This document shows positions 11,346 through 37,367 of a stretch of 64,000 nucleotides of DNA, one piece after another. Positions within the stretch are counted from its first letter, which is position 1. The number at the start of each line of letters is the position of its first letter. Under the pieces are notes generated by a model that saw only the letters and a list, made by a program, of their open reading frames with translations, was not told the DNA's origin and ran no database searches. This stretch comes from Acidimicrobiia bacterium (GTDB lineage: Bacteria; Actinomycetota; Acidimicrobiia; Spongiisociales; UBA5794): the NCBI GenBank assembly GCA_030065575.1, contig JASJDZ010000001.1, positions 209,884 through 273,883 of the forward strand, given 5' to 3'. A program made the translations under genes and the position numbers.

Positions 11346-12481
11346 CGCAGGAGCTGCACTTTGAAGTCGGGGGGCAGGCCGGAGCCACCAGAATCGATCG
11401 TTATGTTGGAGCCGTTGAGGCGAACCGAATAGCCAATCAGGGACCCGGTGACCGTGGTGTTGTCCGAGCCGTTGAACTCGATGAGGCCGTTGGGGCCGTA
11501 GATGATCCCGGTCCACTCGTTGCTTGACCCGCCCATGTTGACCACGAACTTGTCACATTGCTCAACGCCGGAATAGGGCTGAGCTCCGAAGGCAAGCAAG
11601 CCGTCCACGTAGGGGTTCAGCTCCTGATCTGATGCGCTGAACTCAATGAAGCCCTCCGCAACCAGAGTTACGTCCGCAGTGATCGTCTTGTCGAGCTTGA
11701 TATTGCCTTTTGCGTAGTACAGCCCGTCACCGCGTGACTCGATGTACGAACCATCTATGTCGCCATTGCGGTAGTAGTACTCAGATCCGGCCGCAGTCGC
11801 GTTTGAGCTACCGGGCTGGTAGTCGGCTAACTCAAAGTTGACAGGCGATGACTGCGGCGTGATCGACTGGGGGTAGCCGGTATCGAAGGTGTTGCCACCG
11901 CCGCCGTTGGTGAAGTAGTCCACATATGTGACCGTATCAACCGGCGGATTAGTCGTTCCGAAGTCGTTGCTCGAGCCGCCGATGCGGATCCCATCATTGC
12001 TGTGTACCCCGCCGTAGATCGTCTGATTCGACCCCGAAATATCTATCTGGTCCTTGCCCCAGTTAGAGCAGTTGTCCCCGAGAGCGAAGATGCTCGTCGA
12101 TGCGCTGCTTGCTCCAGTGCATGCAGCTGCAGCGTTGGCGTTCACCGAGAGAGTGCTCAACCCGAGGAGCTGAGCAAACCCGAGAGCGACATCATCCCCA
12201 ACCGAGGCCTCCCACTCGCCGGATGATGGCTCTGTCAGTGTCAGGTCTCCAGCCGTATGACCGTTTCGTATGGTCGCGGTCTGCGCAGCCGTCGTCGGGT
12301 CGTTGCCGTGGCAGTCGGCCCAGGCCGCCGAGAGGGCAGCGTGATCAGCGGCATTCTGTACGGCGCGTCGCGCCACCATGACCATCCCAATGTCAACCGC
12401 TAACGCACTCAGCATGAGCAGAACAACGAGGGAAACGGTCACCGTCACCAGCACGGCGCCTTCTTCGCTCGGGCCTTTCAT
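11342..12481 (-). CDS. TadG-like (Tad_N domain) putative pilus-assembly protein
   Basis: 'GAVLVTVTVSLVVLLMLSALAVDIGMVMVARRAVQNAADHAALSAA' matches the Flp pilus TadE/G-like N-terminal domain. Gly/Ser/Asn-rich remainder. Confidence 0.8.
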   Translation of the reverse strand: MKGPSEEGAVLVTVTVSLVVLLMLSALAVDIGMVMVARRAVQNAADHAALSAAWADCHGNDPTTAAQTATIRNGHTAGDLTLTEPSSGEWEASVGDDVALGFAQLLGLSTLSVNANAAAACTGASSASTSIFALGDNCSNWGKDQIDISGSNQTIYGGVHSNDGIRIGGSSNDFGTTNPPVDTVTYVDYFTNGGGGNTFDTGYPQSITPQSSPVNFELADYQPGSSNATAAGSEYYYRNGDIDGSYIESRGDGLYYAKGNIKLDKTITADVTLVAEGFIEFSASDQELNPYVDGLLAFGAQPYSGVEQCDKFVVNMGGSSNEWTGIIYGPNGLIEFNGSDNTTVTGSLIGYSVRLNGSNITIDSGGSGLPPDFKVQLLR

Positions 12482-12611
12482 ATGATTCCTCAGACGACCA
12501 TTTCCCTATCGGCATTAGCGGCGGTGAATCTTTAACCGCTTGGCCCATTCAGCGGCGGGAAGTGGCGTTATGAGGCCGACAATCGTGGCCGTCGGATCGA
12601 CCCGATCTGTT

Positions 12612-13169
12612 CTATCTGGTGGCTTCGATCAAGATGAACTCAGCGAGCAGCCCGAGGCGGTCGCCATCGAGGATGAACCGGGTAACCGCCCCCATGTTGG
12701 TCGGCAGATCGACGTCCTGGTCACCGAGGAACCCATCGCAGCCAATCTCCGTCTGCGCAAATGCAGGACCGAGGGTGATCGGCTGACCTTCCGGGGTGTT
12801 GTCGAGAGCCGATTCCGGCTCGTAGTAGGTGCCGGAGGTCGCGAAGGTGGTTCCCCCTGAGTTACAGCCGGTGTTGTAGGAGACGGACCCGTCGGCATTG
12901 AACTCGATGAACACCGGATCGCTGCCGACGACGTTGGTGAAGCCACCACCATCGGGCAGTGCGTAGTTGGTGATTTCCCACCTGCCGAGCAGTTCTTCGC
13001 TGCGGTCCTCGCCTGCGGGCGGCTCGGGCTCGTCCGGCGGCAACGTGGTAGTAACTGTTGTCTCAGCCGCCGTCGTTGCCGGGGCTTCTGTAGTGGAAGT
13101 GGATTCGTCGCCACCGCATGCCGCAATGGCCAGTGTCAGCGCAATGAGAAGCGTTGTTCGTTTGAGCAT
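12612..13169 (-). CDS. META-domain (HslJ-like) lipoprotein
   Basis: Lipobox 'LTLAIAAC'. META-like pattern 'WEITNY...FNADGSVSYNTGCNSGGTTF...TEIGC'. Confidence 0.65.
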   Translation of the reverse strand: MLKRTTLLIALTLAIAACGGDESTSTTEAPATTAAETTVTTTLPPDEPEPPAGEDRSEELLGRWEITNYALPDGGGFTNVVGSDPVFIEFNADGSVSYNTGCNSGGTTFATSGTYYEPESALDNTPEGQPITLGPAFAQTEIGCDGFLGDQDVDLPTNMGAVTRFILDGDRLGLLAEFILIEATR

Positions 13170-13223
13170 GGCTGAACCCTATACGCCGGGGTTCCGGTCT
13201 GGTGCCGCATTACGCAATGGAAC

Positions 13224-14318
13224 TCAGGGATGAGGCTGCCTGGAGACGACCTTCGCTTCGCCCGACGCCCCGGCAAATCTCCCGCCGAAGTACTTACGGA
13301 AAGCCCATCGCGACAGCCGATCGCCCCCCAGCCGGTACTTCAAACCGTTGCTGTAGATCTGGAGCAGGTACACCGTTTCTCGGTCGTTGCTGTCGGTATA
13401 TCGATCCTTGGCGGCATTCCAGATTCCGCCGTACCCAACCGACTTCAAGCCAAGCCCGACGGCAACCCCAACCGACTCCGCAATGATCGCCTCATAGGCG
13501 TGGTGATTGTCCCTCGATCGATCAAACCCACCCTCAGAAAGCTCTAGGTGATCTCTGTGGCGTACAAAGGACTGCAGCCCGGTGACACTTCCCTCGTTCT
13601 CCGTGTAGATGTGAACGGTGTCCTCACAGTTGGTGAAGAACGAACCACAAACCTGGTACGCATACTCCTTGAACTGCCATCGGCCGATACCTCCGTGATG
13701 ACGGTAGGTCGCCAAGACCAAATCGGAGAAGCGCCGTGCGAGTTCCGGATCGACTGGCCCTTCCCGGACATGGACGGTGCCACCTGCCTTGGAGTGATTG
13801 CGCAGGTGTCGCCGGAGCCGCTTGTGGAGAGCGAGGAAGTCGGCCTTGGTTTCGTAGCCACTGCAGTCGATCCGGCCGAGCCGGTAGTCCGTCTCTAGCA
13901 ATCGGTGTCGGATGAGCGGTAGCGCGGTGCGAACGTCATCATCGATCCGCCCGAAGAACATGCCGTAGAACATGCTGCGGCGGGCTATAGCCCCGAGCAG
14001 GGCAGCCGCCACGCGGGGCCGATCTGCCCGCTCTGTGTAGTAGAAGGCAGTATCCCAACCGACGTGGTTGCCCTCTCCAAGCAACTGCTTGATGGAGACA
14101 AACGGTCGAGCACTCATCAAGCTGGTGACGCCCAGAAGCTCACCGCTCTGGTCTACTGCTCGCAGGAGTTGGAAGAAGCGGCCCGCCGGCGGGATCACAT
14201 CGAGCATGCTCAGCGCAATTCCTCGCTTCAGCAGATCTGGCTCGAGAGCGATGCGCTCTTCCGGGCGCAGCGAATCCTTCGATACGATTACCCGGGCCGG
14301 TATGCCGCCGTCCCCCAT
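13224..14318 (-). CDS. hypothetical protein (possible GNAT/FemAB-fold acyltransferase)
   Basis: 364-aa ORF with coding-like composition. The fold guess is from weak recollection only. Confidence 0.5.
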   Translation of the reverse strand: MGDGGIPARVIVSKDSLRPEERIALEPDLLKRGIALSMLDVIPPAGRFFQLLRAVDQSGELLGVTSLMSARPFVSIKQLLGEGNHVGWDTAFYYTERADRPRVAAALLGAIARRSMFYGMFFGRIDDDVRTALPLIRHRLLETDYRLGRIDCSGYETKADFLALHKRLRRHLRNHSKAGGTVHVREGPVDPELARRFSDLVLATYRHHGGIGRWQFKEYAYQVCGSFFTNCEDTVHIYTENEGSVTGLQSFVRHRDHLELSEGGFDRSRDNHHAYEAIIAESVGVAVGLGLKSVGYGGIWNAAKDRYTDSNDRETVYLLQIYSNGLKYRLGGDRLSRWAFRKYFGGRFAGASGEAKVVSRQPHP

Positions 14319-14389
14319 TTGTCCTCTCTTGCCTCGAACCTCAATCGGATCGTTCGGCCCAGCCTATCTGGGTTGGCAGAGGGCCGTGG

Positions 14390-15274
14390 CTAGGAGGATC
14401 GACTTGACTGCATCAACCGTGCATACGGAGAGGTTGTTGCGGGCCCGCTGCGGCCAACGGCTGGTTCGCCCAGCGCTACGTCGAGGATCGACTCCAGTGC
14501 CTGCGCTCCTGCCGGATCGTCAGGATCGATCAGCTCGGCGTGCCTGGTCTCGAGGATCTCCAACCCGACAGGGTGACCTGCCTCATCGAGTTGGCTGAAG
14601 TAGCGCTCGGCAAACTCGGCGGGGACATTGGCATCGCGGGCGCCGTGGACCATCACCAGCGGGATTTGGCTCGACCTGGAGACACCGTCGATCAGGTAGG
14701 GAGTGTGATCCTTGTCCCAGCTCCGGGTGGCTACCTTCGAGTCGTACTTGTAGGCGCCGCCGAGCCCGACGACAGCCTGCGGCAGATGCGAGATCCCCGG
14801 TAGGCAGTCAAAGTCGTAGGAACCCTCCGCGGTGAGCCGAATCGCCGTTGCCGGATACCCGCCATACGAGAACCCAACCAGAATCAGATTCTCCGGGTCG
14901 GCTCCGAACTCGGCTGCTCGGCTCCGTGAGTACCGGATCGAGCACACAACGTCGCGGAAGGTGTCTTCGATCTCCTGCTGGCTGCGGGGCTGGCCGCTGT
15001 AGTAGTTGGGGACTGCGACGACTGCGCCGCGGCCTGCGAGGGTCCGGGCGAGCGGTGTCATGTCGCCGTTGCCCTTGTCGCCACCACCGTGCAGCAGCAC
15101 GATGAGCGGTGCAGCGCCGGCTGCTTGGGACGGAACGTGGAAGTCGATGGTCTGCCCCTGCGGCACCGACTGGCCGGCAACGACTGTTGAGTCGCTTGCG
15201 GATCCAATGGCCAGCGGCCCGAAGCTGATGAGTACCAAGGTGAGGGCGATGGTGGTGCGTGTTGTGTAGCTCAT
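14390..15274 (-). CDS. secreted alpha/beta hydrolase (esterase)
   Basis: Signal/TM 'IALTLVLISFGPLAIGSAS', oxyanion 'VLLHGGG' and nucleophile elbow 'GFSYGG'. Start taken at the internal Met. Confidence 0.8.
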   Translation of the reverse strand: MSYTTRTTIALTLVLISFGPLAIGSASDSTVVAGQSVPQGQTIDFHVPSQAAGAAPLIVLLHGGGDKGNGDMTPLARTLAGRGAVVAVPNYYSGQPRSQQEIEDTFRDVVCSIRYSRSRAAEFGADPENLILVGFSYGGYPATAIRLTAEGSYDFDCLPGISHLPQAVVGLGGAYKYDSKVATRSWDKDHTPYLIDGVSRSSQIPLVMVHGARDANVPAEFAERYFSQLDEAGHPVGLEILETRHAELIDPDDPAGAQALESILDVALGEPAVGRSGPATTSPYARLMQSSRSS

Positions 15275-15418
15275 GCCGCCACGGTCCGTGATGGGCCTTA
15301 GCGCGGCATTAGCCGCCAATTAGCGCCTCGAGCAGGGCGTTTAAGTCACGTGAAAGGTCAGATTGATGAGCTTCCTGGGTGACAGATTTGCCCTACCAAA
15401 GCGACGGGGAGCGTTTCT

Positions 15419-18400
15419 ATGCTTGACTACAGAGACGGGAAAAGGGGTGGCGTGGAATTCCGCGTTCTTGGAACTCTCGAAGCGGCACACGACGGGGAGC
15501 CGATCGATCTGGGCCCCCTCCGGCAGCGTTCCCTACTTGCGCTGCTGTTGATCCATGCGAATCGTGTAGTTGCAACCGATCGAATCCTCGAAGAGCTCTG
15601 GGGTGACGATGCTGTCGGTAAGGAGAACGCGCTGTGGGTGTACATCTCGCGCCTGCGCAGCGTCCTCGAACCGGACCGTCAGGGGCGTGGTGAGAGCACC
15701 GTCCTGGTGACACGCGATCACGGCTACATGCTGTCAATCGAGCCTGAGTCCATTGATGCGCACCGATTCGAAGCATCGGTCAATGTCGGCCGCTCGTCGG
15801 TACTCGACGACCCGTCCAAGGCGTCATCTGTATTGCGAGAAGCCGCCGACATGTGGCGCGGCCGAGCCTATGAGGACTTCGCCTACGACGAGTTTGCGCA
15901 GGCCGAGATCTCCCGGCTCGAGGAGCTACGCCTGGAAGCGATCGAAGGGCGCATCGAAGCCGATTTGCGGAGGGGCCAGGCTGGGGAGCTGGTCGGCGAG
16001 CTCGAAGCACTCCACCAGGATCATCCGCTGCGCGAGCGCTTTGTGAGTCAGCTGATGCTGGCGCTCTACAGGTCGGGGCGTCAGGCGGAGTCACTGCGCA
16101 CCTTCGAGCGGTTCCGTCGCCATGTCGGCGAGGAGATGGGAATCGAACCGTCTCCGGAGCTGTGTCGCCTGGAGGAGCAAGTGCTCCTGCACGACTCCCG
16201 GATCCAGGCCCGCAGGCCGAGTGCGGCCCGCTCCCCCGGCGGGCTCGTGGGATCCAATCCCTTCAAGGGACTGCAAACCTTCCTCGAACACGACAGCCCC
16301 GACTTCTTTGGCCGGGATCGACTGCTCGCCGACATCGTGCGACGGCTCGAGGAGGGCGCCGGGCTCCTCGCTCTTGTCGGTCCGAGCGGTTCGGGCAAGT
16401 CGAGCGCAGTGCGGGCCGGCCTGATCCCGGCACTACGCAAGGGGGCAATCGAGGGCTCCGACCGGTGGCTCATTGCACAGATGGTGCCCGGTTCTCAACC
16501 GTTTGCAGAACTGGAGGCTGCGCTGTTGCGGTCGTCGCTGGACGCTCCCGACTCGCTTTCCGAGCAGCTTGCCGACCCGGAGGTAGGGATCCTGCGGGCT
16601 GCCTTGCGGGTATTGCCGGACGACCAGGGCTGTCTTGTGCTCGTTATCGACCAGTTCGAGGAGCTATTCACCCTCGTCGATGACGAGCAGCGACGCAGTC
16701 GTTTCCTGGCGAATCTGCTGACGGCTCTCGACGACAGCCGGGGCCGGGTGGTTGTGGTCTTGACCCTTCGCGCCGATTTCTACGATCGGCCGCTGGCCTA
16801 CCCCGAGTTTGGCTCTCGAATGGGTAGCGGCGTTATCAACGTGGTTCCGCTATCGCCCGATGAGCTGGAGGTTGCCGCACAGCGGCCCGCCCAACAAGCC
16901 GGCGTCTCGATCGAACCGGCGCTGCTGGCCGCGTTGCTGACGGACGTCGTGGGCCGACCCGGAGGACTGCCTCTGTTCCAATACACGCTTACCGAGCTGT
17001 TTGATCGCCGGGTGGGTGATCTGCTCACGCTGGATACCTACCGGTCTATCGGGGGCGTTGGTGGAGCACTCACCAAGCGTGCTGAGGATCTCTATTCGCA
17101 ACTCGACGATGCTCAGCGGCAGGCCGCGGGCCAGTTGTTCCTGCGGCTGGTAACAATCACAAAAGACGACGAGTGGGGCCGGCGCCGGGTACCGGCGTCC
17201 GAGATGGTGTCCCTCGACGTCGACGTTGTTGCGTTGCAGGCCGTCATCGAGCTCTATGCCGCGCACCGGCTTCTGACCCTGGATCGGGACTTCGTGTCCG
17301 GCTCGCCGACTGTCGAGGTGGCGCATGAGGCGCTGCTCACGGAATGGGATCGCCTCCGCGACTGGATAGCCGACGGGCGTGAGGATGTGCGCCGCCATGC
17401 CTCGCTCCGCCTGGCGATGGAAGAGTGGATCGAGGCAGACCGCAACGCCGACTTCCTTCTCTCTGGCAGTCGCCTGGAGAGGTACGAGGAGTGGTCGGGC
17501 ACGGCGCAACTGCAGCTCAATGCGGGGCAGCGAGGTTTCCTGGAGGCCTCGATCGCGGCACGAGATCTTGCCACTCAGGTCGAGCAGGAGCGACTGGAAA
17601 CTGAGGCGAGAACCGCCCGATCTGCCAGGCGACGGCTCTGGGGCCTGGCAGCTGCGGTGACTGTCCTTGTAGCCGTCGCGATCATCTGGGGCGTCGTCGC
17701 TCTCGGCCCGGCACCAGCGACGGTGGCGATGTTCACCCCCAGTGATTGGCCCGAAAGCATGACCGATCTGATGGAGACGGGCTTTGCCCGTGCCGAACGT
17801 GAGCTCGATGTCGAGGTAGAGCTCCTCACTGGTCGATTCAGCGACGTGGAGAGCGAGTACCGCAACCTGGCCGAGTCGGGGACCGACCTGATCATCGTCG
17901 ACAGCAACCTGTCTGTGGCTCCCTGGCTCGAGGGAGTCATTGCGGACTACCCGGACACAGCCTTCGCTCTCATCGATCCGTTCTTCGTAATGCCGACCGG
18001 CGCGCTCTCCGTCGGCTTCGCCAATCAGGATGCCGCCTACCTGGCAGGGCTGGCCGCCGCGCTGACAACCGAGAGCGGAGTGGTCGGGTTTGTGGGCGGA
18101 GCTCAAGTCAACTCCGTCACGTCCTGGCGGGCCGGGTTCGAATCGGGAGTCTGGGCCGTGGACTCAGCAATCGACGTCCTGGCAATCCCGGCGACCGCCG
18201 ACACCAGCGGGTTCGCCGACACTGCCGCAGCCAAAGCTGCCGGTACACAGCTGTTTGAGAGCGGTGCCGATGTCATCCTGGCAGTAGCGGCTGACGCAAG
18301 CCTCGGAGTTGTCGAGGCGGCCTGGGAGCAAAGTGAGAGCACGGGCACGCAGCGCTGGGCAATCACTCCCGACTCGGATTGGTGGCCGACCGTGGACGAG

Positions 18401-18973
18401 CACCTAAGGCCGCACGTCCTGACGTCGGCGATCAAGGGCTTGGACGTTGCAGTGTTCGAGACAATCAAGACGCTGACCGAGGGAGAGTTCGAGCCGGGCA
18501 TCAGGACCCTCACGCTGGCCGATGGGGCGTTTTCCCTCACGTCCTCAGGTGAGTACATGACCGAGGATCAGCTGTCACGCATCGCCGACCTGAGCGCAAC
18601 TGTGATCTCCGGTCAAGCGGTCGTACCGGAGTTCCCCGAGGGCGAGATCCTCGCGCCGCCCGGTGTTGAGGTAGCGGAGAGGATCGCCGTTACTTGGGAC
18701 GGAACCACGTGCAGTTACGGCAGCGAACTGACCACTCTCGATATCGGTACGGCCATGCGGCTCGACTTCACAAATTCGAGCTCAGGAATAGCGGAAATGG
18801 CGGTAATGCAGGTCCAACCCGAGTTGGAATTGCAGTTGGTTGTTCCCACCGGGCCCCAGAGCGGAGCCTACGGCTTTGCCGTCCTGGGCCCGGGGAGCTT
18901 CGAGGTGAGCTGTCTGCCCAGCGGCCTCATGCCATGGGAAAGAACGACCGGAGCCATTCTGACCGCCGGGTAG
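15419..18973 (+). CDS. SARP-type wHTH-BTAD / nSTAND P-loop NTPase / TM / extracytoplasmic BMP (PnrA-like) binding-domain fusion protein
   Basis: The N-terminus 'VEFRVLGTLEA...' has the OmpR-type wHTH plus BTAD pattern. 'NPFKGLQTFLEHDSPDFFGRD', Walker A 'GPSGSGKSS' and Walker B 'LVLVIDQFEELF' follow. The TM helix is 'LWGLAAAVTVLVAVAIIWGVVAL'. The C-terminus has BMP-like 'VVGFVGGAQVNSVTSWRAGFESGV'. Confidence 0.85.
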   Translation: MLDYRDGKRGGVEFRVLGTLEAAHDGEPIDLGPLRQRSLLALLLIHANRVVATDRILEELWGDDAVGKENALWVYISRLRSVLEPDRQGRGESTVLVTRDHGYMLSIEPESIDAHRFEASVNVGRSSVLDDPSKASSVLREAADMWRGRAYEDFAYDEFAQAEISRLEELRLEAIEGRIEADLRRGQAGELVGELEALHQDHPLRERFVSQLMLALYRSGRQAESLRTFERFRRHVGEEMGIEPSPELCRLEEQVLLHDSRIQARRPSAARSPGGLVGSNPFKGLQTFLEHDSPDFFGRDRLLADIVRRLEEGAGLLALVGPSGSGKSSAVRAGLIPALRKGAIEGSDRWLIAQMVPGSQPFAELEAALLRSSLDAPDSLSEQLADPEVGILRAALRVLPDDQGCLVLVIDQFEELFTLVDDEQRRSRFLANLLTALDDSRGRVVVVLTLRADFYDRPLAYPEFGSRMGSGVINVVPLSPDELEVAAQRPAQQAGVSIEPALLAALLTDVVGRPGGLPLFQYTLTELFDRRVGDLLTLDTYRSIGGVGGALTKRAEDLYSQLDDAQRQAAGQLFLRLVTITKDDEWGRRRVPASEMVSLDVDVVALQAVIELYAAHRLLTLDRDFVSGSPTVEVAHEALLTEWDRLRDWIADGREDVRRHASLRLAMEEWIEADRNADFLLSGSRLERYEEWSGTAQLQLNAGQRGFLEASIAARDLATQVEQERLETEARTARSARRRLWGLAAAVTVLVAVAIIWGVVALGPAPATVAMFTPSDWPESMTDLMETGFARAERELDVEVELLTGRFSDVESEYRNLAESGTDLIIVDSNLSVAPWLEGVIADYPDTAFALIDPFFVMPTGALSVGFANQDAAYLAGLAAALTTESGVVGFVGGAQVNSVTSWRAGFESGVWAVDSAIDVLAIPATADTSGFADTAAAKAAGTQLFESGADVILAVAADASLGVVEAAWEQSESTGTQRWAITPDSDWWPTVDEHLRPHVLTSAIKGLDVAVFETIKTLTEGEFEPGIRTLTLADGAFSLTSSGEYMTEDQLSRIADLSATVISGQAVVPEFPEGEILAPPGVEVAERIAVTWDGTTCSYGSELTTLDIGTAMRLDFTNSSSGIAEMAVMQVQPELELQLVVPTGPQSGAYGFAVLGPGSFEVSCLPSGLMPWERTTGAILTAG

Positions 18974-19015
18974 CAACCGAGGTCAGGACCTGAGCGAAGG
19001 TCAATCTCGCAATCA

Positions 19016-19044
19016 GGAACCCCCCTGACACACAGGGGGGTTCC
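19016..19044. terminator. bidirectional hairpin terminator between convergent genes
   Basis: GGAACCCCCCT-GACACAC-AGGGGGGTTCC, an 11-bp perfect stem. Confidence 0.7.
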
Positions 19045-19064
19045 GGGTTCTCTTCGCTCGGGGC

Positions 19065-19241
19065 CTACGGCCGGTCGGGTGGTCGCCGTTTCCGCAAGCG
19101 CCCGGAACGGCGTGCGGCATCGACCAGTATGGCCTCGATCTGGGCGTTCACCGAGCGAAACTCGTCTGCCGCCCACGACTCGTAGACGTCGTAGAGCTCC
19201 TGGGGAATCCGAAGCAGATACTGCTTTCGTTGGCGCGCCAT
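19065..19241 (-). CDS. Arc/MetJ-type ribbon-helix-helix DNA-binding protein (58 aa, not in ORF track)
   Basis: My translation is '[58 protein letters not shown]'. SD GGGGAG lies 6 nt upstream, and the ORF starts 18 nt after the SPFH stop. Confidence 0.7.
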
Positions 19242-19259
19242 GCGATGCTCCCCGGTTCG

Positions 19260-20168
19260 CTACCGACTCAGCGTCCCTACGTTCACAACCGGGTTCGTCG
19301 GCTGATCACTAGCGATAACGGTCATCAAGTTGGCAGCGAAGGTCGCCTTGCGATCCTCGTCGAGAGCGATGGAATCATGACCCGCATCTCCCTCTTCGAG
19401 GCCGGCGACTGCATCACGCACCATGAGCACGGCACCTTCGACGATCTTCTTGCGAGCAGCGACAATGGCGGCCGCCTGTTGCCGGCGCAGCATCGACTCG
19501 GCGATCTCCGGGGCATACGCCAGGTCGGTGATACGGGTCTCCATGATCTCTACCCCGGCGTCGTCGGCGCGATCCTGCAACTCGACGAGAAGATCCTCGT
19601 TGATCTCACTGGTGGCGCCGATGAGCGTCGTCACATCCGTCTCATCAAACGCGTCATATGGGTACGACCGGGCGAGCTGGCGAACGGCGGACTCCGACTG
19701 GATCTGCACGTAGTTCGTGAAGTTGTCGACGCCGAACACGGCCCGAGCAGTGTCGGTGACTCGCCACACGACGACCGCGGCAATCTCGATCGGGTTGCCG
19801 CGCGCATCGTTGACCTTCGAGGTCTGCGTGGTGAAGTTGCGCACCCGCAGCGATACCTTCTTCTTGATGTACAGCGGATTGGCCCAGCGCAGCCCCGGCT
19901 TTGCGTCGCTTCCCCGATAGTCGCCGAACAGGGTCAGCACGGCCGACTGGTTGGGCTGGATCATGTAGAAGCCGATTGAGACGATGACAACCAGAAGCGA
20001 CAGGAGACTCGCCAGGAGGATCATCCATAGGCTCCCGTTTATCGCTCCGAAGATGAACAGGGCAATTGAGCCGAGCAGCATGACGATGTCGGCCAGCAGC
20101 CAGGGGATACCTCCCCGGGACCGGGCCGGTGTCTCGACTATCTGCAAGTTGGTTTCCCGAACAGTCAC
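19260..20168 (-). CDS. SPFH/Band-7 domain membrane protein
   Basis: N-terminal TM helices, then the SPFH pattern 'PNQSAVLTLFGDYRG...PGLRWANP...AAVVVWRVTD'. GTG 20168 is preferred (SD AGAGGAG 5 nt upstream) over the track TTG 20186. Confidence 0.85.
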   Translation of the reverse strand: MTVRETNLQIVETPARSRGGIPWLLADIVMLLGSIALFIFGAINGSLWMILLASLLSLLVVIVSIGFYMIQPNQSAVLTLFGDYRGSDAKPGLRWANPLYIKKKVSLRVRNFTTQTSKVNDARGNPIEIAAVVVWRVTDTARAVFGVDNFTNYVQIQSESAVRQLARSYPYDAFDETDVTTLIGATSEINEDLLVELQDRADDAGVEIMETRITDLAYAPEIAESMLRRQQAAAIVAARKKIVEGAVLMVRDAVAGLEEGDAGHDSIALDEDRKATFAANLMTVIASDQPTNPVVNVGTLSR

Positions 20169-21598: not shown

Positions 21599-22993
21599 TC
21601 AACTCAGGATTGTCGTGAGCTCGTCCCGGCTGAGGTTGTAGGAGGCTGGTGGCATATCGTCGGCCACCAATCGAGCTCGTGCCATCAGCTCGTCGTCATC
21701 GAGACAGCTCGATGGAGTGTCGAACCCCTGATTCACTGCGGTCCAGCGCCGCCAGCACTCCATGTCCCGCATGGACGCCCGCACCATCCGGGTGCGATCG
21801 GAGACATCACCGTTCGCCGGGTTGCCCAGGGCCTCGTTGAGGGCCCGGCGCATACCTTCATCCGAGGCAACGGCATCCCACAGGTACGGCAGCAGGCGGT
21901 CCTCCTTGACACGATCGAACTCGTAGGTGATCTCCTCAGGCCGATCCGTCACCCGGAGGAGAGATCGGAGCTCCAGAGCACCTATGGCGGCGAGGGCAAT
22001 GCCACGGCCGAGGCTCGGGTTCGTCGACAGGACCGAGTCGCCGACGTTGACGATCCCGATTACCGACGGGCGGTCGCCGTTCCAGAAGCGGAGCCGGCGA
22101 TTCTGGATGGCACCCATGGGGAGGACATCGCTGATCGGAGTAGCGACGGCGGGGTCGACCCAGTGTGCGATCGGATCGAGTTTGCGGGCGACGGCAGTGA
22201 ATACCTCAGGATCGCGGAGCCGGCGCAGGATCTTGTCGCTGCCGAGCCCGACCATGGCCAAACCGAACACGCCTGAATCGCCCGGGAAGTTCAGTGCCAC
22301 CAAACCGGGCGCCATACCGCCAAACAGGCCTGCAACGTTCTCTGGGTAGGTGCCGTCGTGGGTGCGGAACCACATGGAGTGGTAGGTGAAGCCGTCGCTC
22401 TCGCTCCATTGCTCGACGGGTGCTCCGAGCGCTTCGAACCACTTCGGGGCGGCCGTGCGGCGCCCCCCGGAGTCGATGACCAGATCTGCTTCGACATCGC
22501 CGTTCTCAGTGGTCACACCCCGGATGGTGGGGATTCCGTTCGGGTCGAGCTCACCGGCGAGCAATCCCGTGACGGCCATTCCCCGGCGCACGTCAACATT
22601 CGGCTCGGAGTCGGCGGCGAGGGCCATGAGGCGGTCAAATGTGGTGCGGCGCATGACCTCGACGCGGAATCGGCGGCGATCCTCTTTGGTCACCGCATCG
22701 GGATCTGGAGCGAAACGGGTCAGGTGGTCTGACGTGTAGGTATCGGACTTCTCGACGCCGGCCCACACGTCGGGCAATTCCTCGACCAATACCTCGCGGG
22801 TCCTGCCGAGGAAGCCGTGGGGTTGGCGCACTTGCGATATGCCCTTGCGGGTCCAAGAGTTCCACGCTGCTTCGTTGGACGCCGGTGGAGGCTCGGCATC
22901 CCGCTCGAGCACGGTCACGTCATGACCGTCCCGGGCAAGGAGCAAACCAGTCAATAGTCCGCCGGCACCGCCTCCGACCACCACGATTCTCAT
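21599..22993 (-). CDS. FAD-dependent oxidoreductase/monooxygenase-like
   Basis: 'MRIVVVGGGAGGLLTGLLLARDGHDVTVLERD' GxGxxG-plus-acidic motif. 464 aa. Confidence 0.75.
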   Translation of the reverse strand: MRIVVVGGGAGGLLTGLLLARDGHDVTVLERDAEPPPASNEAAWNSWTRKGISQVRQPHGFLGRTREVLVEELPDVWAGVEKSDTYTSDHLTRFAPDPDAVTKEDRRRFRVEVMRRTTFDRLMALAADSEPNVDVRRGMAVTGLLAGELDPNGIPTIRGVTTENGDVEADLVIDSGGRRTAAPKWFEALGAPVEQWSESDGFTYHSMWFRTHDGTYPENVAGLFGGMAPGLVALNFPGDSGVFGLAMVGLGSDKILRRLRDPEVFTAVARKLDPIAHWVDPAVATPISDVLPMGAIQNRRLRFWNGDRPSVIGIVNVGDSVLSTNPSLGRGIALAAIGALELRSLLRVTDRPEEITYEFDRVKEDRLLPYLWDAVASDEGMRRALNEALGNPANGDVSDRTRMVRASMRDMECWRRWTAVNQGFDTPSSCLDDDELMARARLVADDMPPASYNLSRDELTTILS

Positions 22994-33949: not shown

Positions 33950-34345
33950 CTACTGCGGTTGTGGCGGAGTGGTGGCGGGGTGTGTGGCGATTCCGACGAG
34001 TGAGCCAGAGAGCCACCACCTCGGGCGGGTCACGTCACGGGATCCGATCAGCGACCCGCCGACACCGAGGAACCGGCCGGTGCCTCCGACGATGGCGAGC
34101 GTCACCACACCTACGGTGTCCAGGCGATAGGTCCCGTAGAGAGCATTGCTCTTGCTGTCGACGATGGTCACCCAGCCACGCGAGGCGGACGATCCGGCAG
34201 TTGCGACAAGGGTGAACGCACCAACCGAGCCCAACTCTCCGCGCACTGCCTCATCGCCAAACACCCCCTCCAGCCATCCCGACGTCGCAACCGCGTGGTC
34301 CCAGGGGACGTCCGTTCCATCCGTGGCATCCCGGTTGTCGCTCAT
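33950..34345 (-). CDS. hypothetical protein
   Basis: 131-aa ORF divergent from the SARP gene. No recognisable motif. Confidence 0.4.
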   Translation of the reverse strand: MSDNRDATDGTDVPWDHAVATSGWLEGVFGDEAVRGELGSVGAFTLVATAGSSASRGWVTIVDSKSNALYGTYRLDTVGVVTLAIVGGTGRFLGVGGSLIGSRDVTRPRWWLSGSLVGIATHPATTPPQPQ

Positions 34346-34430
34346 GCGGAGATCGTCGGAGGCCTTGGTGGTGGTCGAGTTGTCGACGAGTTGTGGTCGC
34401 TACCGTCGTCCAATTCGATACGATGTCCGT

Positions 34431-37367
34431 ATGGAGGTTCGGATCCTCGGTCGCGTCGAGGTGACTAACGATGGTGCCACGATCCAAATCGAGGGACCCA
34501 AGGAACGAGCGATCCTCTCCGCACTCGCACTCGAAGCCGGCACCCCCGTTACCTCAGGTCGGCTATGCGATGTGTTGTGGGGGGACGAGCCGCCGGAAAC
34601 TGCGACAAAGACCCTGCAGTGGCACGTTTCGCGGCTGCGGCGCTCGATCGGAACCGACATCGTCGTGACCGAACCCGGCGGGTACTCCCTCGGCGTATCA
34701 CCAGAAGATGTGGATGCCATCCGCTTTGAACGGCTACTGGTCCATGCACGCGATCTGCTCCTCCGCGATGACCCAGCTGCCGCTGCCCAGGATCTCGAAA
34801 CCGCTCTCGAACTGTGGTCGGGTGCCCCTCTTACCGATGGAGCCGCCAGCGGCTATCGCACCGGACAGGACCGCCGCTTCGCTGAGCTACACACCCTTGC
34901 CCACGAACGCTTGGTCGAGGCCGAACTCGGGCTCGGGCACCACGAATCGATGATCCCACGTCTCCACGCCATGATCGCCGTGGAGCCCTATCGCGACCGG
35001 CCCCGGGAACTCCTGATGCTCGCCTTGTATCGAGCGGGGCGCCAGGCGGACGCACTGCGATCGTATGCCGACTACCGCAAGCTGCTCGTAGAGGAACTCG
35101 GCATCGATCCCTCAGAGGGAGTCCGCGAACTCGAGGAGCGAATCCTGCGCCAGGATCCCCAACTCGACCATCGGCCACCTCCTCCGCCCTCCAATCTGCC
35201 GCGGGAGAGAGATCCCATTATCGGGCGCTCTGGCGATGTCGGCGCCGTTATCGATGCCATCGGCCCTCACACAATTGTCACACTCGTCGGAGCGGGCGGT
35301 ATGGGCAAGAGCCGTCTCGCCCTAGCGGTAGCTCATCAGACCCAGCCGACGTTCCGTGACGGGACATTTTGGATCGATCTAGCCGCGCTGCGCCCCCACG
35401 ACAACCTCGCCGAGCACATCGCGGCAACACTCGGCGCAACCCCGGCACCCGGACAGCCCGCTATCAGTGCACTCGCAGTGTTCTTAGCACGCCGCGACAT
35501 CCTGATCGTGCTCGACAACTGTGAGCATCTTCTGTCCGAAGCTGCGGAACTCGGTGCAATTCTTGTCGAGGCAGGATCCGGGGTTCGCGTTCTGGCAACC
35601 TCACGCGCAGCGTTGGGTCAGCCGTCGGAGCGTCGCATGGTCGTGGGCCCCCTCAGCACCGATCGAACGGAGGGCGCACCATCAGAGGCCGAGGAGCTCT
35701 TCCGGCTCCGGGCTAGCGAGCACTCATCGCTTGGCATGAGCGACGATGAGGGCACCGACATCGCAGAGCTTTGCAGGATGCTCGGCGGCATACCCCTGGC
35801 AATTGAGATCGCAGCAGCTCGCTCCGATGTCCACACAGCTCGCGAGATCATCGATGAGATCGAGGCGACCGGCCGACTCCCCAGCCGGACAGAGACTCCA
35901 GAGCATGTGCGGCAAGAGAACCTCGACTACGTTCTCGACTGGTCGTACTCCATGCTCGAACCTGAGGAACAGGTTGCGTACGACAAGCTCGCCGTCTTCC
36001 GCGGTGCGTTCGACCTCGACGCAGCAGCCGAAGTTCTCGACCGGGAAAGGTCCAGCGCAGGTCATCTTCTCGGAAGATTCCTGGCCGCATCCATGGTCGT
36101 TCCAGCCGACCCAGGAAGTGGCGTGCGGAGATTCCGACTCCTCGAGCCTCTCCGTCTCTACGCCCGATCACACCTGGACGACGAGGCATACGTCGCGACC
36201 TCGACTCGGCATGCGGATTACTACCGGAACTTCTGCTCAGAGTCGTCTGTGTACGTGAAAGAAGACGTCACTGGATGGCGGGGACGGATTCTTCTCGATG
36301 ACCGGAACATCACCGCTGCAATCGAATGGTCGCTCACTAATGGAGGACCCGGTTTTGCTCTACCGTTTGCCGACAACATCGGCGACGCCTGGTATCGATC
36401 CGGCCAGTACCAGCGATGCTTCCGGGTGCTGTCTGAGATGCTCGAACACGCTGGCGATGCCCCACCAGCCCTTCGCGCCAGTGCGCGCAACGCAATCGTG
36501 TGGCCTGCCCTGCTTTCCGGTGAGAGTCAGACTGCCTTTGCGCACGTCTCCAAGGCGATCGAGGAAGCCGAGGAAGCAGGCGATGCCGTGCAGCTTGCCT
36601 GGGCCCGGTGGTCCCTGGCACACATGCTGGTTCTAGGTGTCGGAGACTTCGCGTCGGCCTTCCCTCTCTACGACGCCGCCATCGAGGCGGCGGGTAGCGA
36701 CCTCGAGCAGTTTGGCTCTCTCACCGGCCTTGGCGTAGCGGCGCGAGCCCAAGCTCGGGCCATGGCGGATATCGAGGCGCCCGACGACGTGGAGTCACTC
36801 GATCGGGCCGAGAGGCTGCTCACCCAGATCAACGACATGTCGGGGCTCGCTCACGTCTGGATGGCGCGCTCCATAAGGGCAATCAGAGAGGGCGACGTCC
36901 GTCGAATTCGGTTCACCTCGGAACGGACGATCCACTTCGGACGCCTGGTTAGCGAACCGGTGTACGAGCACATCGGCCTTTTCGGGCGAGCCGTGGGCGA
37001 GCTGCTAGGCGCCAACCTGCCCAGCGCCCTCGACACCACTTACCAGTCGGTGCGCATCTGCGAGGCAACGCAGAATCTCCTCCAGCTCGGCGTCTCTCTC
37101 CAGGCGCTTGCGGTAGTTGCCGTCGAAGTCGGCCAGATGCGAGAGGGAGCAACGCTCTACGAAGCTGGGACATCACTTGCTGCCCCGTGGCCAATGTTCG
37201 AGCGGATCTTTGCTCCGTACTTCGAGAAGTGTGCAGATGAACTGGGCGACGATTTCGATGTCGCACGCAAGCGAGGTGCAGAGCTGACCGTCGACGAGGC
37301 TATGGCGCTAGCCGCATCGATACGGATCCGGCCGGAGGAAGGCTCGGTGCAGGACTCATCGACCTGA
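34431..37367 (+). CDS. AfsR/SARP-family regulator (wHTH-BTAD + NB-ARC ATPase + TPR-like C-terminus)
   Basis: Internal ATG 'MEVRILGRVEV...'. BTAD 'DAIRFERL...MLALYRAGRQADAL'. Walker A 'GAGGMGKS' and 'ILIVLDNCEHL'. Confidence 0.85.
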   Translation: MEVRILGRVEVTNDGATIQIEGPKERAILSALALEAGTPVTSGRLCDVLWGDEPPETATKTLQWHVSRLRRSIGTDIVVTEPGGYSLGVSPEDVDAIRFERLLVHARDLLLRDDPAAAAQDLETALELWSGAPLTDGAASGYRTGQDRRFAELHTLAHERLVEAELGLGHHESMIPRLHAMIAVEPYRDRPRELLMLALYRAGRQADALRSYADYRKLLVEELGIDPSEGVRELEERILRQDPQLDHRPPPPPSNLPRERDPIIGRSGDVGAVIDAIGPHTIVTLVGAGGMGKSRLALAVAHQTQPTFRDGTFWIDLAALRPHDNLAEHIAATLGATPAPGQPAISALAVFLARRDILIVLDNCEHLLSEAAELGAILVEAGSGVRVLATSRAALGQPSERRMVVGPLSTDRTEGAPSEAEELFRLRASEHSSLGMSDDEGTDIAELCRMLGGIPLAIEIAAARSDVHTAREIIDEIEATGRLPSRTETPEHVRQENLDYVLDWSYSMLEPEEQVAYDKLAVFRGAFDLDAAAEVLDRERSSAGHLLGRFLAASMVVPADPGSGVRRFRLLEPLRLYARSHLDDEAYVATSTRHADYYRNFCSESSVYVKEDVTGWRGRILLDDRNITAAIEWSLTNGGPGFALPFADNIGDAWYRSGQYQRCFRVLSEMLEHAGDAPPALRASARNAIVWPALLSGESQTAFAHVSKAIEEAEEAGDAVQLAWARWSLAHMLVLGVGDFASAFPLYDAAIEAAGSDLEQFGSLTGLGVAARAQARAMADIEAPDDVESLDRAERLLTQINDMSGLAHVWMARSIRAIREGDVRRIRFTSERTIHFGRLVSEPVYEHIGLFGRAVGELLGANLPSALDTTYQSVRICEATQNLLQLGVSLQALAVVAVEVGQMREGATLYEAGTSLAAPWPMFERIFAPYFEKCADELGDDFDVARKRGAELTVDEAMALAASIRIRPEEGSVQDSST

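What the first reader, a model, noticed from the sequence alone, without database searches (positions are those of the whole stretch)
15419..18973. Transmembrane SARP-nSTAND regulator with an extracytoplasmic BMP/PnrA-type ligand-binding domain
A single 1184-aa ORF joins four parts:
- an OmpR-type wHTH plus BTAD;
- an nSTAND-type P-loop module ('NPFKGLQTFLEHDSPDFFGRD', 'GPSGSGKSS', 'VIDQFEELF');
- one TM helix (about residue 745);
- a roughly 430-aa C-terminal region with BMP-family lipoprotein blocks ('VGFVGGAQVNSVTSWRAGFESGV').

BTAD-nSTAND proteins usually end in WD40/TPR repeats. A periplasmic-binding-protein ectodomain would make this a one-component, membrane-spanning, nucleotide-switch-gated sensor, possibly of nucleosides.
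Basis: partly seen in the sequence, partly recalled or inferred. Interest (0 to 1): 0.6.

Follow-up and report, generated by a model that had tools for sequence, protein, structure and literature searches.

The report
Membrane-spanning SARP-STAND regulator and its target
One intact gene of an uncultured Acidimicrobiia bacterium encodes a transcription activator anchored in the membrane, with an ATP switch inside and a remodelled solute-binding domain outside. Its own DNA box sits next door in front of a secreted esterase gene, so this unstudied signalling design can be tested directly.

Summary
Window 15419..18973 (+) is one uninterrupted 1184-aa ORF with five parts:
- OmpR-type wHTH plus BTAD (the SARP module)
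- a full-length nSTAND1 NTPase
- one N-in/C-out TM helix (743-765)
- a Bmp/PnrA-fold domain

The same architecture recurs in more than 25 clusters at 90% identity, and in about 30 of the best 150 clusters at 50% identity. It is therefore a real family, mostly from Acidimicrobiia, and I found no paper that describes it.

1. The TM helix is not special to the Bmp version: 67 of 79 nSTAND1 relatives from many phyla have one just after the NTPase.
2. Nucleoside sensing is doubtful. Stand-alone Bmp proteins of the same class keep all eight pocket residues. This protein keeps five of the eight and has lost the base-stacking Phe-Asn loop.
3. A likely operator exists. Three GCTAAK heptamers at 11-bp spacing (15296-15324, minus strand) are unique in the 2.8-Mb genome. 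They lie at the AfsR-box position of a leaderless promoter for the divergent secreted esterase gene. Orthologues carry the same box.

The ligand and the way the signal crosses the membrane remain inferred.

The parts
15419..18973 (+). Regulator gene, 1184 aa, monocistronic
   Evidence: RBS GGGGAG at 15406-15411; terminator downstream
15497..15733 (+). OmpR-type winged-helix DNA-binding domain (aa 27-105)
   Evidence: Pfam Trans_reg_C 3e-15; closest solved structures are AfsR 8hvr/8k60 and EmbR 2fez
15752..16186 (+). BTAD domain (aa 112-256); together with the wHTH it forms the SARP module
   Evidence: Pfam BTAD 9e-43
16259..17449 (+). nSTAND1 NTPase (aa 281-677). Walker A GPSGSGKSS is aa 321-329 (nt 16379-16405); Walker B VLVID..EE is aa 407-415 (nt 16637-16663)
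   Evidence: Pfam nSTAND1 3e-111, full model length; motif residues invariant in 21 homologues
17450..17644 (+). Cytoplasmic juxtamembrane segment (aa 678-742), ending in ARRRLW
   Evidence: Sequence and family consensus. A helical, signal-carrying role is inferred
17645..17713 (+). Single transmembrane helix (aa 743-765), N-in/C-out
   Evidence: KD 2.66; 6 K+R before versus 0 after; same feature in 67 of 79 nSTAND1 relatives
17723..18643 (+). Extracytoplasmic Bmp/PnrA-fold domain (aa about 769-1075) with a remodelled ligand pocket
   Evidence: Pfam Bmp 2e-33; AF2 pLDDT 94.5; Foldseek hits to Lbp, PnrA, BmpD, TmpC and Med; pocket mapping
18677..18970 (+). Cupredoxin-like beta-sandwich (aa 1087-1184) with invariant Cys1098/Cys1165 and no His
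   Evidence: AF2 pLDDT 92; Foldseek hits to the EfeO Cup domain, FtrB and auracyanin, TM 0.6-0.66; invariant Cys pair
19016..19044 (+). Terminator-like hairpin after the gene
15296..15324 (-). Candidate operator: GCTAATT-ggcg-GCTAATG-ccgc-GCTAAGG, three heptamers at 11-bp spacing, pointing at the esterase gene
   Evidence: Only occurrence of GYTAAK-N5-GYTAAK in the window (expected 0.01) and in the whole 2.8-Mb genome. Same box beside the orthologues
15281..15286 (-). Putative -10 hexamer GACCGT. It lies 9 nt after the last heptamer and 6 nt before the ATG, which implies a leaderless mRNA
   Evidence: Read from the sequence. Geometry compared with the SARP rule in PMC10936776. Inferred
14390..15274 (-). 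Divergent target gene: secreted alpha/beta-hydrolase (carboxylesterase type), 294 aa counted from the internal ATG that begins a signal peptide
   Evidence: Pfam BD-FAE 6e-13, above its cut-off; PDB carboxyl- and acetyl-xylan esterases. The listed TTG start at 15319 would lie inside the box
15340..15357 (+). Degenerate two-heptamer box (TTTAAGT-cacg-TGAAAGG), 61 nt before the regulator's ATG. It sits where the orthologues have their strong autoregulatory box
   Evidence: Comparison of intergenic regions. Weak match (5/6 and 3/6)

Best explanation
The gene encodes a single-pass, membrane-anchored, one-component transcription activator.

Inside the cell are a SARP DNA-binding and activation module and an nSTAND1 NTP-driven switch. 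Outside are a Bmp-fold 'Venus flytrap' domain, whose pocket has diverged from the nucleoside-binding type, and a disulfide-stabilised cupredoxin-like domain.

Inferred mechanism:
1. An extracytoplasmic cue (a small molecule other than a canonical nucleoside, or a protein partner) changes the conformation or packing of the ectodomains.
2. This change is passed through the TM and juxtamembrane helix to the nSTAND1 module.
3. The NTP-bound module oligomerises and lines up SARP domains side by side on GYTAAK heptamers spaced 11 bp apart.
4. The SARP domains recruit RNA polymerase, as AfsR does, to a promoter without a -35 element.

In this genome the one strong site drives a leaderless mRNA for the divergent secreted carboxylesterase gene. 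A degenerate second site may give weak autoregulation.

Shown here: the architecture, the fold, conservation of the family, the remodelled pocket, and the uniqueness, geometry and conservation of the box. Inferred: the topology in vivo, the ligand, how the signal crosses the membrane, and actual binding and activation.
For: - Domain assignment.
- Topology.
- Family recurrence.
- Ectodomain fold: AF2 pLDDT 94.5; Foldseek E about 1e-20 to PnrA, BmpD and Lbp.
- NTPase motifs are invariant.
- The SARP module is closest to AfsR and EmbR.
- Box uniqueness: the triple GCTAAK repeat is unique in the window (2 overlapping hits against 0.01 expected) and in the genome (expected 1.4 pairs and 7e-4 triples; only this site found).
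- Box position: if transcription starts at the A of the esterase ATG, the two proximal 11-bp units span -39 to -18. The afs box of AfsR spans -40 to -19, and SARP repeats are spaced 11 bp with the 3' repeat about 8 bp from the -10 element (PMC10936776).
- Box conservation: among 114 fetched loci the exact pattern occurs only beside fused regulators. With one mismatch allowed it is found upstream of 7 orthologues (L013, L014, L108, L109, L111, L112, L114), and L113 carries a weaker pair that falls below that threshold. Each of the eight also has an oppositely oriented set facing the divergent gene, only weakly in L112.
Against:
- The -10 hexamer (GACCGT) is poor and the leaderless start is inferred.
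- The spacer to the -10 element is 9 nt, not 8.
- In the orthologues the divergent gene encodes an NTF2/SnoaL-like lipoprotein, not an esterase. The target here is therefore lineage-specific, and the window's autoregulatory box is degenerate.
- In classical STAND proteins the sensor touches the NTPase directly. A membrane between them requires a different, unknown coupling.
- Pocket residues vary widely within the family, so the domain may bind no small molecule at all.
Pocket geometry and the Cys-Cys distance were not measured.
Confidence: 0.65

Rival explanations
1. One reading: the ectodomain is still a nucleoside (or ribosyl-compound) receptor, so the protein is an extracellular nucleoside sensor.
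For: The three ribose-contacting positions are kept (BmpA D98, D225, K242 = D853, D985, K1006). Two of the three conserved pocket Phe positions are also kept, including one of the two that sandwich the base (F151, F176 = F907, F932). The best structural matches are all nucleoside-bound proteins.
Against: The first stacking Phe and the adjacent Asn are Met781/Thr782, V224 is Pro, and the DxGGxGD loop is missing. F27A alone abolishes binding in BmpA. Six stand-alone Bmp proteins of the same class and two Bmp-permease fusions keep all eight positions, whereas fused homologues vary at F27, N28, F176, V224, D225 and K242. Fused branches are 2- to 10-fold longer in the tree.
Confidence: 0.22
2. The Bmp domain no longer binds a small molecule. 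It serves as a docking or dimerisation platform, in the way Med (a Bmp-fold lipoprotein) acts in comK regulation, or ToxS and VtrC act as partners for ToxR and VtrA. The cue would then be a secreted partner protein or an envelope state.
For: The best TM-score normalised to the target is to Med 2hqb (0.81). Pocket positions are not conserved within the family. Orthologous loci always pair the regulator with a divergent secreted NTF2/SnoaL-like lipoprotein gene under the same box. An extra cupredoxin-like domain without metal ligands is attached.
Against: This genome has no detectable homologue of that lipoprotein. Five pocket residues, including the ribose triad, are kept in this member. No interaction data exist.
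Confidence: 0.25
3. It is an NLR-like conflict or immunity sensor, as proposed for many nSTAND1 proteins, with transcription as its effector output.
For: nSTAND1 was defined in predicted conflict systems (PMC8195603; PMC7159879). The sensor pocket evolves quickly.
Against: There is no hit to PADLOC defence models (best E 0.004). No toxic effector domain is present. The neighbours are housekeeping or envelope genes with no defence-island context. The target is an esterase.
Confidence: 0.07
4. The hydrophobic stretch is not a membrane helix, and the Bmp-fold domain is cytoplasmic, like the PBP-fold effector domains of LacI/PurR repressors.
For: Foldseek also retrieves LacI-family cores at E about 1e-9. 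No experimental topology exists.
Against: KD is 2.66 over 19 residues. K+R counts are 6 before and 0 after. The same segment and charge bias occur in 67 of 79 relatives, against 7 of 79 inside the NTPase and 1 of 76 in the rest of the C-terminus. A Cys pair is invariant in the last domain of an otherwise Cys-poor protein. All Bmp-family relatives found are exported.
Confidence: 0.05

Closest known systems
AfsR and other 'large' SARPs of Streptomyces (SARP-NOD-TPR); EmbR of M. tuberculosis
   Same: The N-terminal wHTH+BTAD module matches (phmmer 3e-36 to AfsR and 8e-33 to EmbR). A P-loop STAND-type switch follows it. The predicted operator is made of direct repeats at 11-bp spacing, placed where the afs box sits.
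   Different: The NTPase is nSTAND1, not the AfsR NOD: the match to AfsR stops at residue 299, and the NCBIfam AfsR equivalog scores 166 bits against a cut-off of 1430. There is no TPR. The sensor lies beyond a membrane helix, outside the cell. AfsR is soluble.
ToxR/CadC/TcpP-type transmembrane transcription regulators
   Same: The topological plan is the same: an N-terminal cytoplasmic OmpR-type wHTH, one TM helix and a C-terminal extracytoplasmic sensor, with one-component logic. CadC also has a periplasmic disulfide.
   Different: Those proteins have no BTAD and no NTPase between the DNA-binding domain and the membrane, and their sensor domains are unrelated. A census of such regulators (PMC10269533) does not mention SARP, BTAD or Bmp.
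PnrA/TmpC, BmpA-D and Lbp: Bmp-family nucleoside-binding lipoproteins of ABC transporters
   Same: The fold is the same (Foldseek E 1e-18 to 1e-20, 20-27% identity), as are the ribose-contacting Asp, Asp and Lys.
   Different: It is anchored by a TM helix of a larger protein rather than by a lipobox. None of 14 loci has an adjacent Bmp-type ABC permease. The base-recognition loop is lost. An extra cupredoxin-like domain is attached.
nSTAND1-WD40 proteins (kinase, caspase, HTH or SARP - nSTAND1 - TM - WD40), including two paralogues in this genome
   Same: They share the NTPase family and the same hydrophobic helix, at a median of 48 residues after it. Some also have the SARP N-terminus.
   Different: Their C-terminal module is a WD40 propeller instead of Bmp plus cupredoxin. 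The two paralogues here also carry a Ser/Thr kinase between BTAD and nSTAND1.
EfeO N-terminal Cup domain and FtrB (cupredoxin-like periplasmic domains)
   Same: The C-terminal 98 residues have the same fold (TM 0.60-0.66, E 5e-5).
   Different: There is no His in the domain, so the type-1 copper ligand set is absent. Two invariant Cys probably form a disulfide instead.

Membership tests
SARP (Streptomyces antibiotic regulatory protein) family | N-terminal OmpR-type wHTH followed by a BTAD domain | tested here: met
   Pfam Trans_reg_C 56.5 bits (cut-off 26.2) and BTAD 146.5 bits (cut-off 22.1); AfsR and EmbR are the top PDB hits
SARP (Streptomyces antibiotic regulatory protein) family | Operator of direct repeats at 11- or 22-bp spacing, with the 3' repeat about 8 bp from the -10 element | tested here: inconclusive
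   A unique triple GCTAAK repeat at 11-bp spacing lies next to the gene and is conserved in the orthologues. The spacer to the best -10 candidate is 9 nt. Binding was not tested
AfsR-type large SARP (SARP-NOD-TPR) | AfsR-type NOD followed by a TPR sensor; NCBIfam equivalog NF053617 | tested here: not met
   166 bits against a cut-off of 1430, and only residues 7-327 match. No TPR hit above threshold
nSTAND1 NTPases (PF20703) | Full-length match to the family model with Walker A and Walker B motifs | tested here: met
   373 bits (cut-off 27.1), model positions 1-378 of 379. GPSGSGKSS, D411 and E414 are invariant in 21 homologues
Bmp/PnrA family (PF02608) substrate-binding proteins | Bmp sequence family and type-I PBP fold | tested here: met
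   115.9 bits (cut-off 24.1); phmmer 6e-25 to Lbp 7x0r; Foldseek E 2e-20
Bmp/PnrA family (PF02608) substrate-binding proteins | Complete nucleoside pocket (BmpA F27, N28, D98, F151, F176, V224, D225, K242) | tested here: not met
   The eight positions read M, T, D, F, F, P, D, K here. Stand-alone relatives keep all eight
Bmp/PnrA family (PF02608) substrate-binding proteins | Lipoprotein or SBP encoded with ABC-transporter permease and ATPase genes | tested here: not met
   It is anchored by an internal TM helix. No Bmp-type transporter genes lie beside the window gene or 13 homologous loci
ToxR-like transmembrane transcription regulators | Cytoplasmic N-terminal wHTH, single TM helix, extracytoplasmic C-terminal sensor | tested here: inconclusive
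   Predicted from the sequence. Topology is not experimentally testable here. The inserted BTAD and NTPase have no counterpart in ToxR or CadC
Cupredoxins | Greek-key beta-sandwich with His/Cys/His/Met copper ligands | tested here: not met
   The fold matches, but residues 1080-1184 contain no His. The two Cys are invariant
Anti-phage defence STAND systems (Avs/bNACHT-like) | Match to known defence-system models and a defence-island context | tested here: not met
   Best PADLOC E-value is 0.004, on the P-loop only. The neighbours are not defence genes

The most novel reading that the evidence does not exclude
The nSTAND1 clade as a whole would be a large, unrecognised class of transmembrane NLR-like receptors. 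The NTP-gated oligomerisation switch would sit in the cytoplasm, and the sensor (WD40, or here Bmp plus cupredoxin) would sit outside the cell, coupled through one helix. That is a coupling mode no studied STAND protein uses. This member would be a foraging circuit: the remodelled Bmp pocket would sense a product or substrate of the secreted esterase that the regulator itself switches on.
Probability: 0.3. Interest if true: 0.8.

Novelty: new variant of a known kind. Interest (0 to 1): 0.55.

Why it matters
Large SARPs and other STAND/NLR switches have been studied only as soluble proteins whose sensor domain touches the NTPase. In this family the sensor is on the other side of the membrane. 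That raises a concrete mechanistic question: how does one helix gate a STAND switch?

The system is also unusually easy to test. It offers one protein, one unique operator and one adjacent target promoter. A comparative series is available as well, because orthologues have the same box but a different partner gene, and paralogues have WD40 sensors.

The work also shows that a transporter-type binding domain changes its pocket once it is recruited as a sensor. This cautions against transferring 'nucleoside' annotations to such fusions.

Tried and rejected
- **Conserved gene neighbourhood.** Neighbours of distant homologues (L015-L017) share nothing with the window and include no ABC permease.
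- **Fusion link to the neighbouring hydrolase.** P0018 carries a C-terminal alpha/beta-hydrolase and hydrolase genes on both sides. Its similarity to the window's esterase is limited to the oxyanion-hole segment (E 7e-4 over 39 aa), and no other locus holds an orthologue of the window's esterase. I kept this only as a weak lead.
- **Sigma-70 consensus promoter scan.** It found nothing in 15200-19300 or 12400-15420, as expected for SARP-dependent actinobacterial promoters.
- **Pfam on the last 114 residues.** Only noise; the fold search was needed.
- **PADLOC.** No defence match.
- **Literature.** Searches for nSTAND1/BTAD/Bmp combinations found no description of this architecture. One search was wasted on substring matches.
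- **Partner gene.** The NTF2-like partner lipoprotein of the orthologues was sought in the window's genome and not found.
- **Model coordinates.** They are not exposed to the Python box. The Cys-Cys distance and the open or closed state of the cleft could not be measured.


Full report
**1. Observation**

Window 15419..18973 (+) is a single 1184-codon ORF with no internal stop. A GGGGAG ribosome-binding site lies 7 nt before the ATG, and a 12-bp GC-rich hairpin with a T-tail lies at 19016-19044.

Pfam places four domains, all above their curated cut-offs:
- Trans_reg_C at residues 27-105
- BTAD at 112-256
- nSTAND1 at 281-677 (373 bits, the whole model)
- Bmp at 781-1041 (116 bits)

The only strongly hydrophobic stretch is 743-765 (Kyte-Doolittle 2.66). 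Six Arg/Lys lie in the 22 residues before it and none in the 23 after it.

**2. It is a real, recurrent architecture**

- A search restricted to residues 735-1184 found about 24 clusters (90% identity level) of 1135-1250 aa with the same four Pfam domains, 33-52% identical in the ectodomain. One belongs to the cultured actinomycete Fodinibacter luteus.
- Twenty-one full-length members align with 56% mean column identity. The Walker A motif (G321-S329), D411 and E414 are invariant.
- A scan of 1.84 billion cluster representatives with the ectodomain gave 129 hits at E <= 1e-30. About 30 of the best 150 are proteins of 1000 aa or more with the match in their last third.
- In 301 genomes of the same class, 104 have a Bmp homologue, but only about ten of these lie in open frames longer than 900 aa. 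The fusion is therefore sporadic.

**3. The outside part**

AlphaFold2, run with the family alignment, models residues 766-1184 at pLDDT 94.5. Foldseek against the PDB puts nucleoside-binding Bmp proteins first:
- Lbp 7x0r, pneumococcal PnrA, BmpD and TmpC/PnrA, at E 1e-18 to 2e-20
- then RfuA, AtzT and Med

The last 98 residues form a separate eight-strand sandwich (pLDDT 92). Its best matches are cupredoxin-like domains: the EfeO Cup domain, FtrB and auracyanin (TM 0.60-0.66). This domain has no His, so it lacks a type-1 copper site. Its two Cys (1098 and 1165) are invariant in 19 homologues. That fits a disulfide and hence an extracytoplasmic location. I could not measure the Cys-Cys distance because the coordinates are not exposed.

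**4. The pocket is remodelled**

The BmpA paper lists the conserved nucleoside pocket as F27, D98, F151, F176, V224, D225 and K242. It also shows that F27A or F176A abolishes binding (PMC13325309). The BmpD paper adds the neighbouring Asn.

I mapped these positions through the HMMER alignments to TmpC and Lbp and a MAFFT alignment.
- The window protein reads M781, T782, D853, F907, F932, P984, D985, K1006. The sugar-binding half is kept and the base-recognition loop is lost.
- Six stand-alone Bmp proteins from genomes of the same class, and two Bmp-permease fusions, keep all eight residues and the DxGGxGDxSFN loop.
- The SARP-nSTAND1 fusions vary at six of the eight positions.
- In a maximum-likelihood tree the window's ectodomain sits in a 100/100-supported clade of 18 fused proteins. 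Fused branches are much longer than those of the stand-alone proteins.

The 'nucleoside' guess is therefore weakened but not excluded.

**5. The membrane helix is a family trait of nSTAND1**

The same genome has two paralogues of the form wHTH-BTAD-Ser/Thr kinase-nSTAND1-hydrophobic helix, one of them followed by WD40 repeats.

I examined 79 nSTAND1 ORFs fetched from species-representative genomes of Actinomycetota, Chloroflexota, Cyanobacteria, Bacteroidota, Proteobacteria and other phyla.
- 67 have a 19-residue window with KD >= 1.8, at a median of 48 residues after the NTPase.
- The same threshold is reached in only 7 of 79 inside the NTPase, and in 1 of 76 in the remaining C-terminus.
- Mean K+R is 5.6 in the 15 residues before the helix and 2.3 in the 15 after it.

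Pfam confirms WD40 propellers after that helix in the five of the seven sampled members that have any Pfam match downstream of nSTAND1. The two Aravind-group papers that define nSTAND1 do not discuss this arrangement in the passages I could find.

**6. A cognate operator and target**

Scanning upstream regions for repeats at 10-12 or 21-23 nt spacing brought out a heptamer G(C/T)TAA(G/T)N repeated at 11-nt spacing.

In the window:
- It occurs three times on the minus strand (15296-15324): GCTAATT ggcg GCTAATG ccgc GCTAAGG.
- The pattern GYTAAK-N5-GYTAAK has 2 overlapping hits in the 64-kb window against 0.01 expected.
- It occurs nowhere else in the 2.8-Mb assembly (expected 1.4 pairs and 7e-4 triples).

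In other loci:
- With one mismatch allowed it is present upstream of seven orthologues: L013, L014, L108, L109, L111, L112 and L114. L113 has a weaker pair that falls below that threshold.
- Each of these eight intergenic regions also has a second, oppositely oriented set of two or three heptamers facing the divergent gene, only weakly in L112.

In the window the strong set faces the divergent gene. Its last heptamer ends 21 nt before an ATG at 15274. That ATG opens a typical signal peptide of an alpha/beta-hydrolase (BD-FAE/carboxylesterase type). The TTG start listed by the ORF finder (15319) would lie inside the box.

If transcription starts at that ATG, the two proximal 11-bp units span -39 to -18. 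The afs box of AfsR spans -40 to -19, and the general SARP rule is 11-bp spacing with the 3' repeat about 8 bp from the -10 element (PMC10936776). A weak -10 (GACCGT) lies 9 nt after the last heptamer, and there is no Shine-Dalgarno sequence. I therefore read this as a SARP-dependent leaderless promoter for the secreted esterase.

The plus-strand set, which is strong in the orthologues and would give autoregulation, is degenerate here (15340-15357).

**7. What differs from the orthologues**

In eight orthologous loci the divergent gene encodes a secreted NTF2/SnoaL-like lipoprotein. These lipoproteins are homologous to one another. The window's genome has no detectable homologue, and an esterase gene occupies that slot.

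One homologue (P0018) carries an alpha/beta-hydrolase domain in place of the cupredoxin-like domain and is flanked by hydrolase genes. The sequence link to the window's esterase is only generic.

**8. Mechanism**

Shown: the domain order, the fold, the intact NTPase motifs, the predicted topology, the remodelled pocket, and the unique, conserved and correctly positioned operator.

Inferred, in order:
1. A cue outside the cell alters the ectodomain.
2. The TM and juxtamembrane helix passes this change to nSTAND1.
3. The NTP-bound oligomer arrays SARP domains on the direct repeats.
4. The SARP domains recruit RNA polymerase by the 'sigma adaptation' route seen for AfsR.

The membrane tether implies that DNA is bound at the membrane, as for ToxR and CadC. 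Alternatively the cytoplasmic part could be released by proteolysis. I have no evidence on either point.

**9. Comparison and novelty**

The closest studied proteins are the large SARPs (AfsR) for the output and switch logic, ToxR/CadC for the topology, and PnrA/Bmp proteins for the sensor fold. The protein fails the membership tests for AfsR-type SARPs, for canonical nucleoside-binding Bmp proteins and for known defence STANDs.

I found no paper that describes the architecture. Several earlier notes of this scan flagged the same family in other genomes. Their claim of an adjacent DNA box is reproduced here. Their 'partner gene' is replaced in this genome by an esterase gene.

I rate the finding a new variant of a known kind, of moderate to good interest. 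The main reason is that it offers a compact, testable case of a STAND switch gated from across the membrane.

Noticed in passing
genome contigs C78:63999-69864 (+) and C10:10506-13794 (-, cut by the contig end); not in the window: Two paralogues of the form wHTH-BTAD-Ser/Thr kinase-nSTAND1-TM helix. The C78 copy (1955-aa frame) continues into a long WD40 region and is followed directly by a 447-aa SARP ORF.
   Followed up: partly
79 nSTAND1 ORFs in loci L018-L097: 67 of 79 have a TM-like helix at a median of 48 residues after the NTPase, with a positive-inside charge bias. Controls: 7 of 79 inside the NTPase and 1 of 76 in the rest of the C-terminus. nSTAND1 proteins may in general be single-pass membrane proteins with their WD40 region outside.
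   Followed up: partly
window about 34140-37365 (+) and other contigs: The 2.8-Mb MAG carries at least ten further large (850-1330 aa) SARP-type ORFs without nSTAND1, one of them inside this window (1075-aa frame). That is a large repertoire for a small genome.
   Followed up: no
L013, L014, L108, L109, L111, L112, L113, L114: the gene divergent from the regulator: Orthologous loci pair the regulator with a divergently transcribed secreted lipoprotein that has an NTF2/SnoaL-like domain (133-416 aa; homologous among loci). It lies under an oppositely oriented heptamer set and may be a co-sensor or the primary target.
   Followed up: partly
window 14390-15319 (-): The longest-ORF start (TTG at 15319) of the alpha/beta-hydrolase gene is probably wrong. 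The ATG at 15274 begins a signal peptide and leaves the heptamer box outside the coding region. No Shine-Dalgarno sequence precedes it, which suggests a leaderless mRNA.
   Followed up: yes
P0018 / L110:6001-10251: A 1416-aa family member has an alpha/beta-hydrolase domain after the Bmp domain in place of the cupredoxin-like domain. It is flanked by a fragmented Abhydrolase_1 gene and an Abhydrolase_11 gene.
   Followed up: partly
L016:11155-13830: A second copy 1.5 kb downstream of the full-length regulator is split into an nSTAND1 ORF (590 aa) and a Bmp ORF (261 aa). It is probably a decaying tandem paralogue.
   Followed up: no
P0027, P0028 (724-744 aa): These are fusions of a Bmp domain with the BPD_transp_2 permease domain. 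They keep the full nucleoside pocket, which contrasts with the regulator fusions.
   Followed up: no
window 12612-13169 (-) and 21599-22993 (-) versus L013: The META-domain lipoprotein and the FAD-dependent oxidoreductase near the regulator have 31-34% identical counterparts near the orthologue in L013. This is loose synteny around the locus.
   Followed up: no
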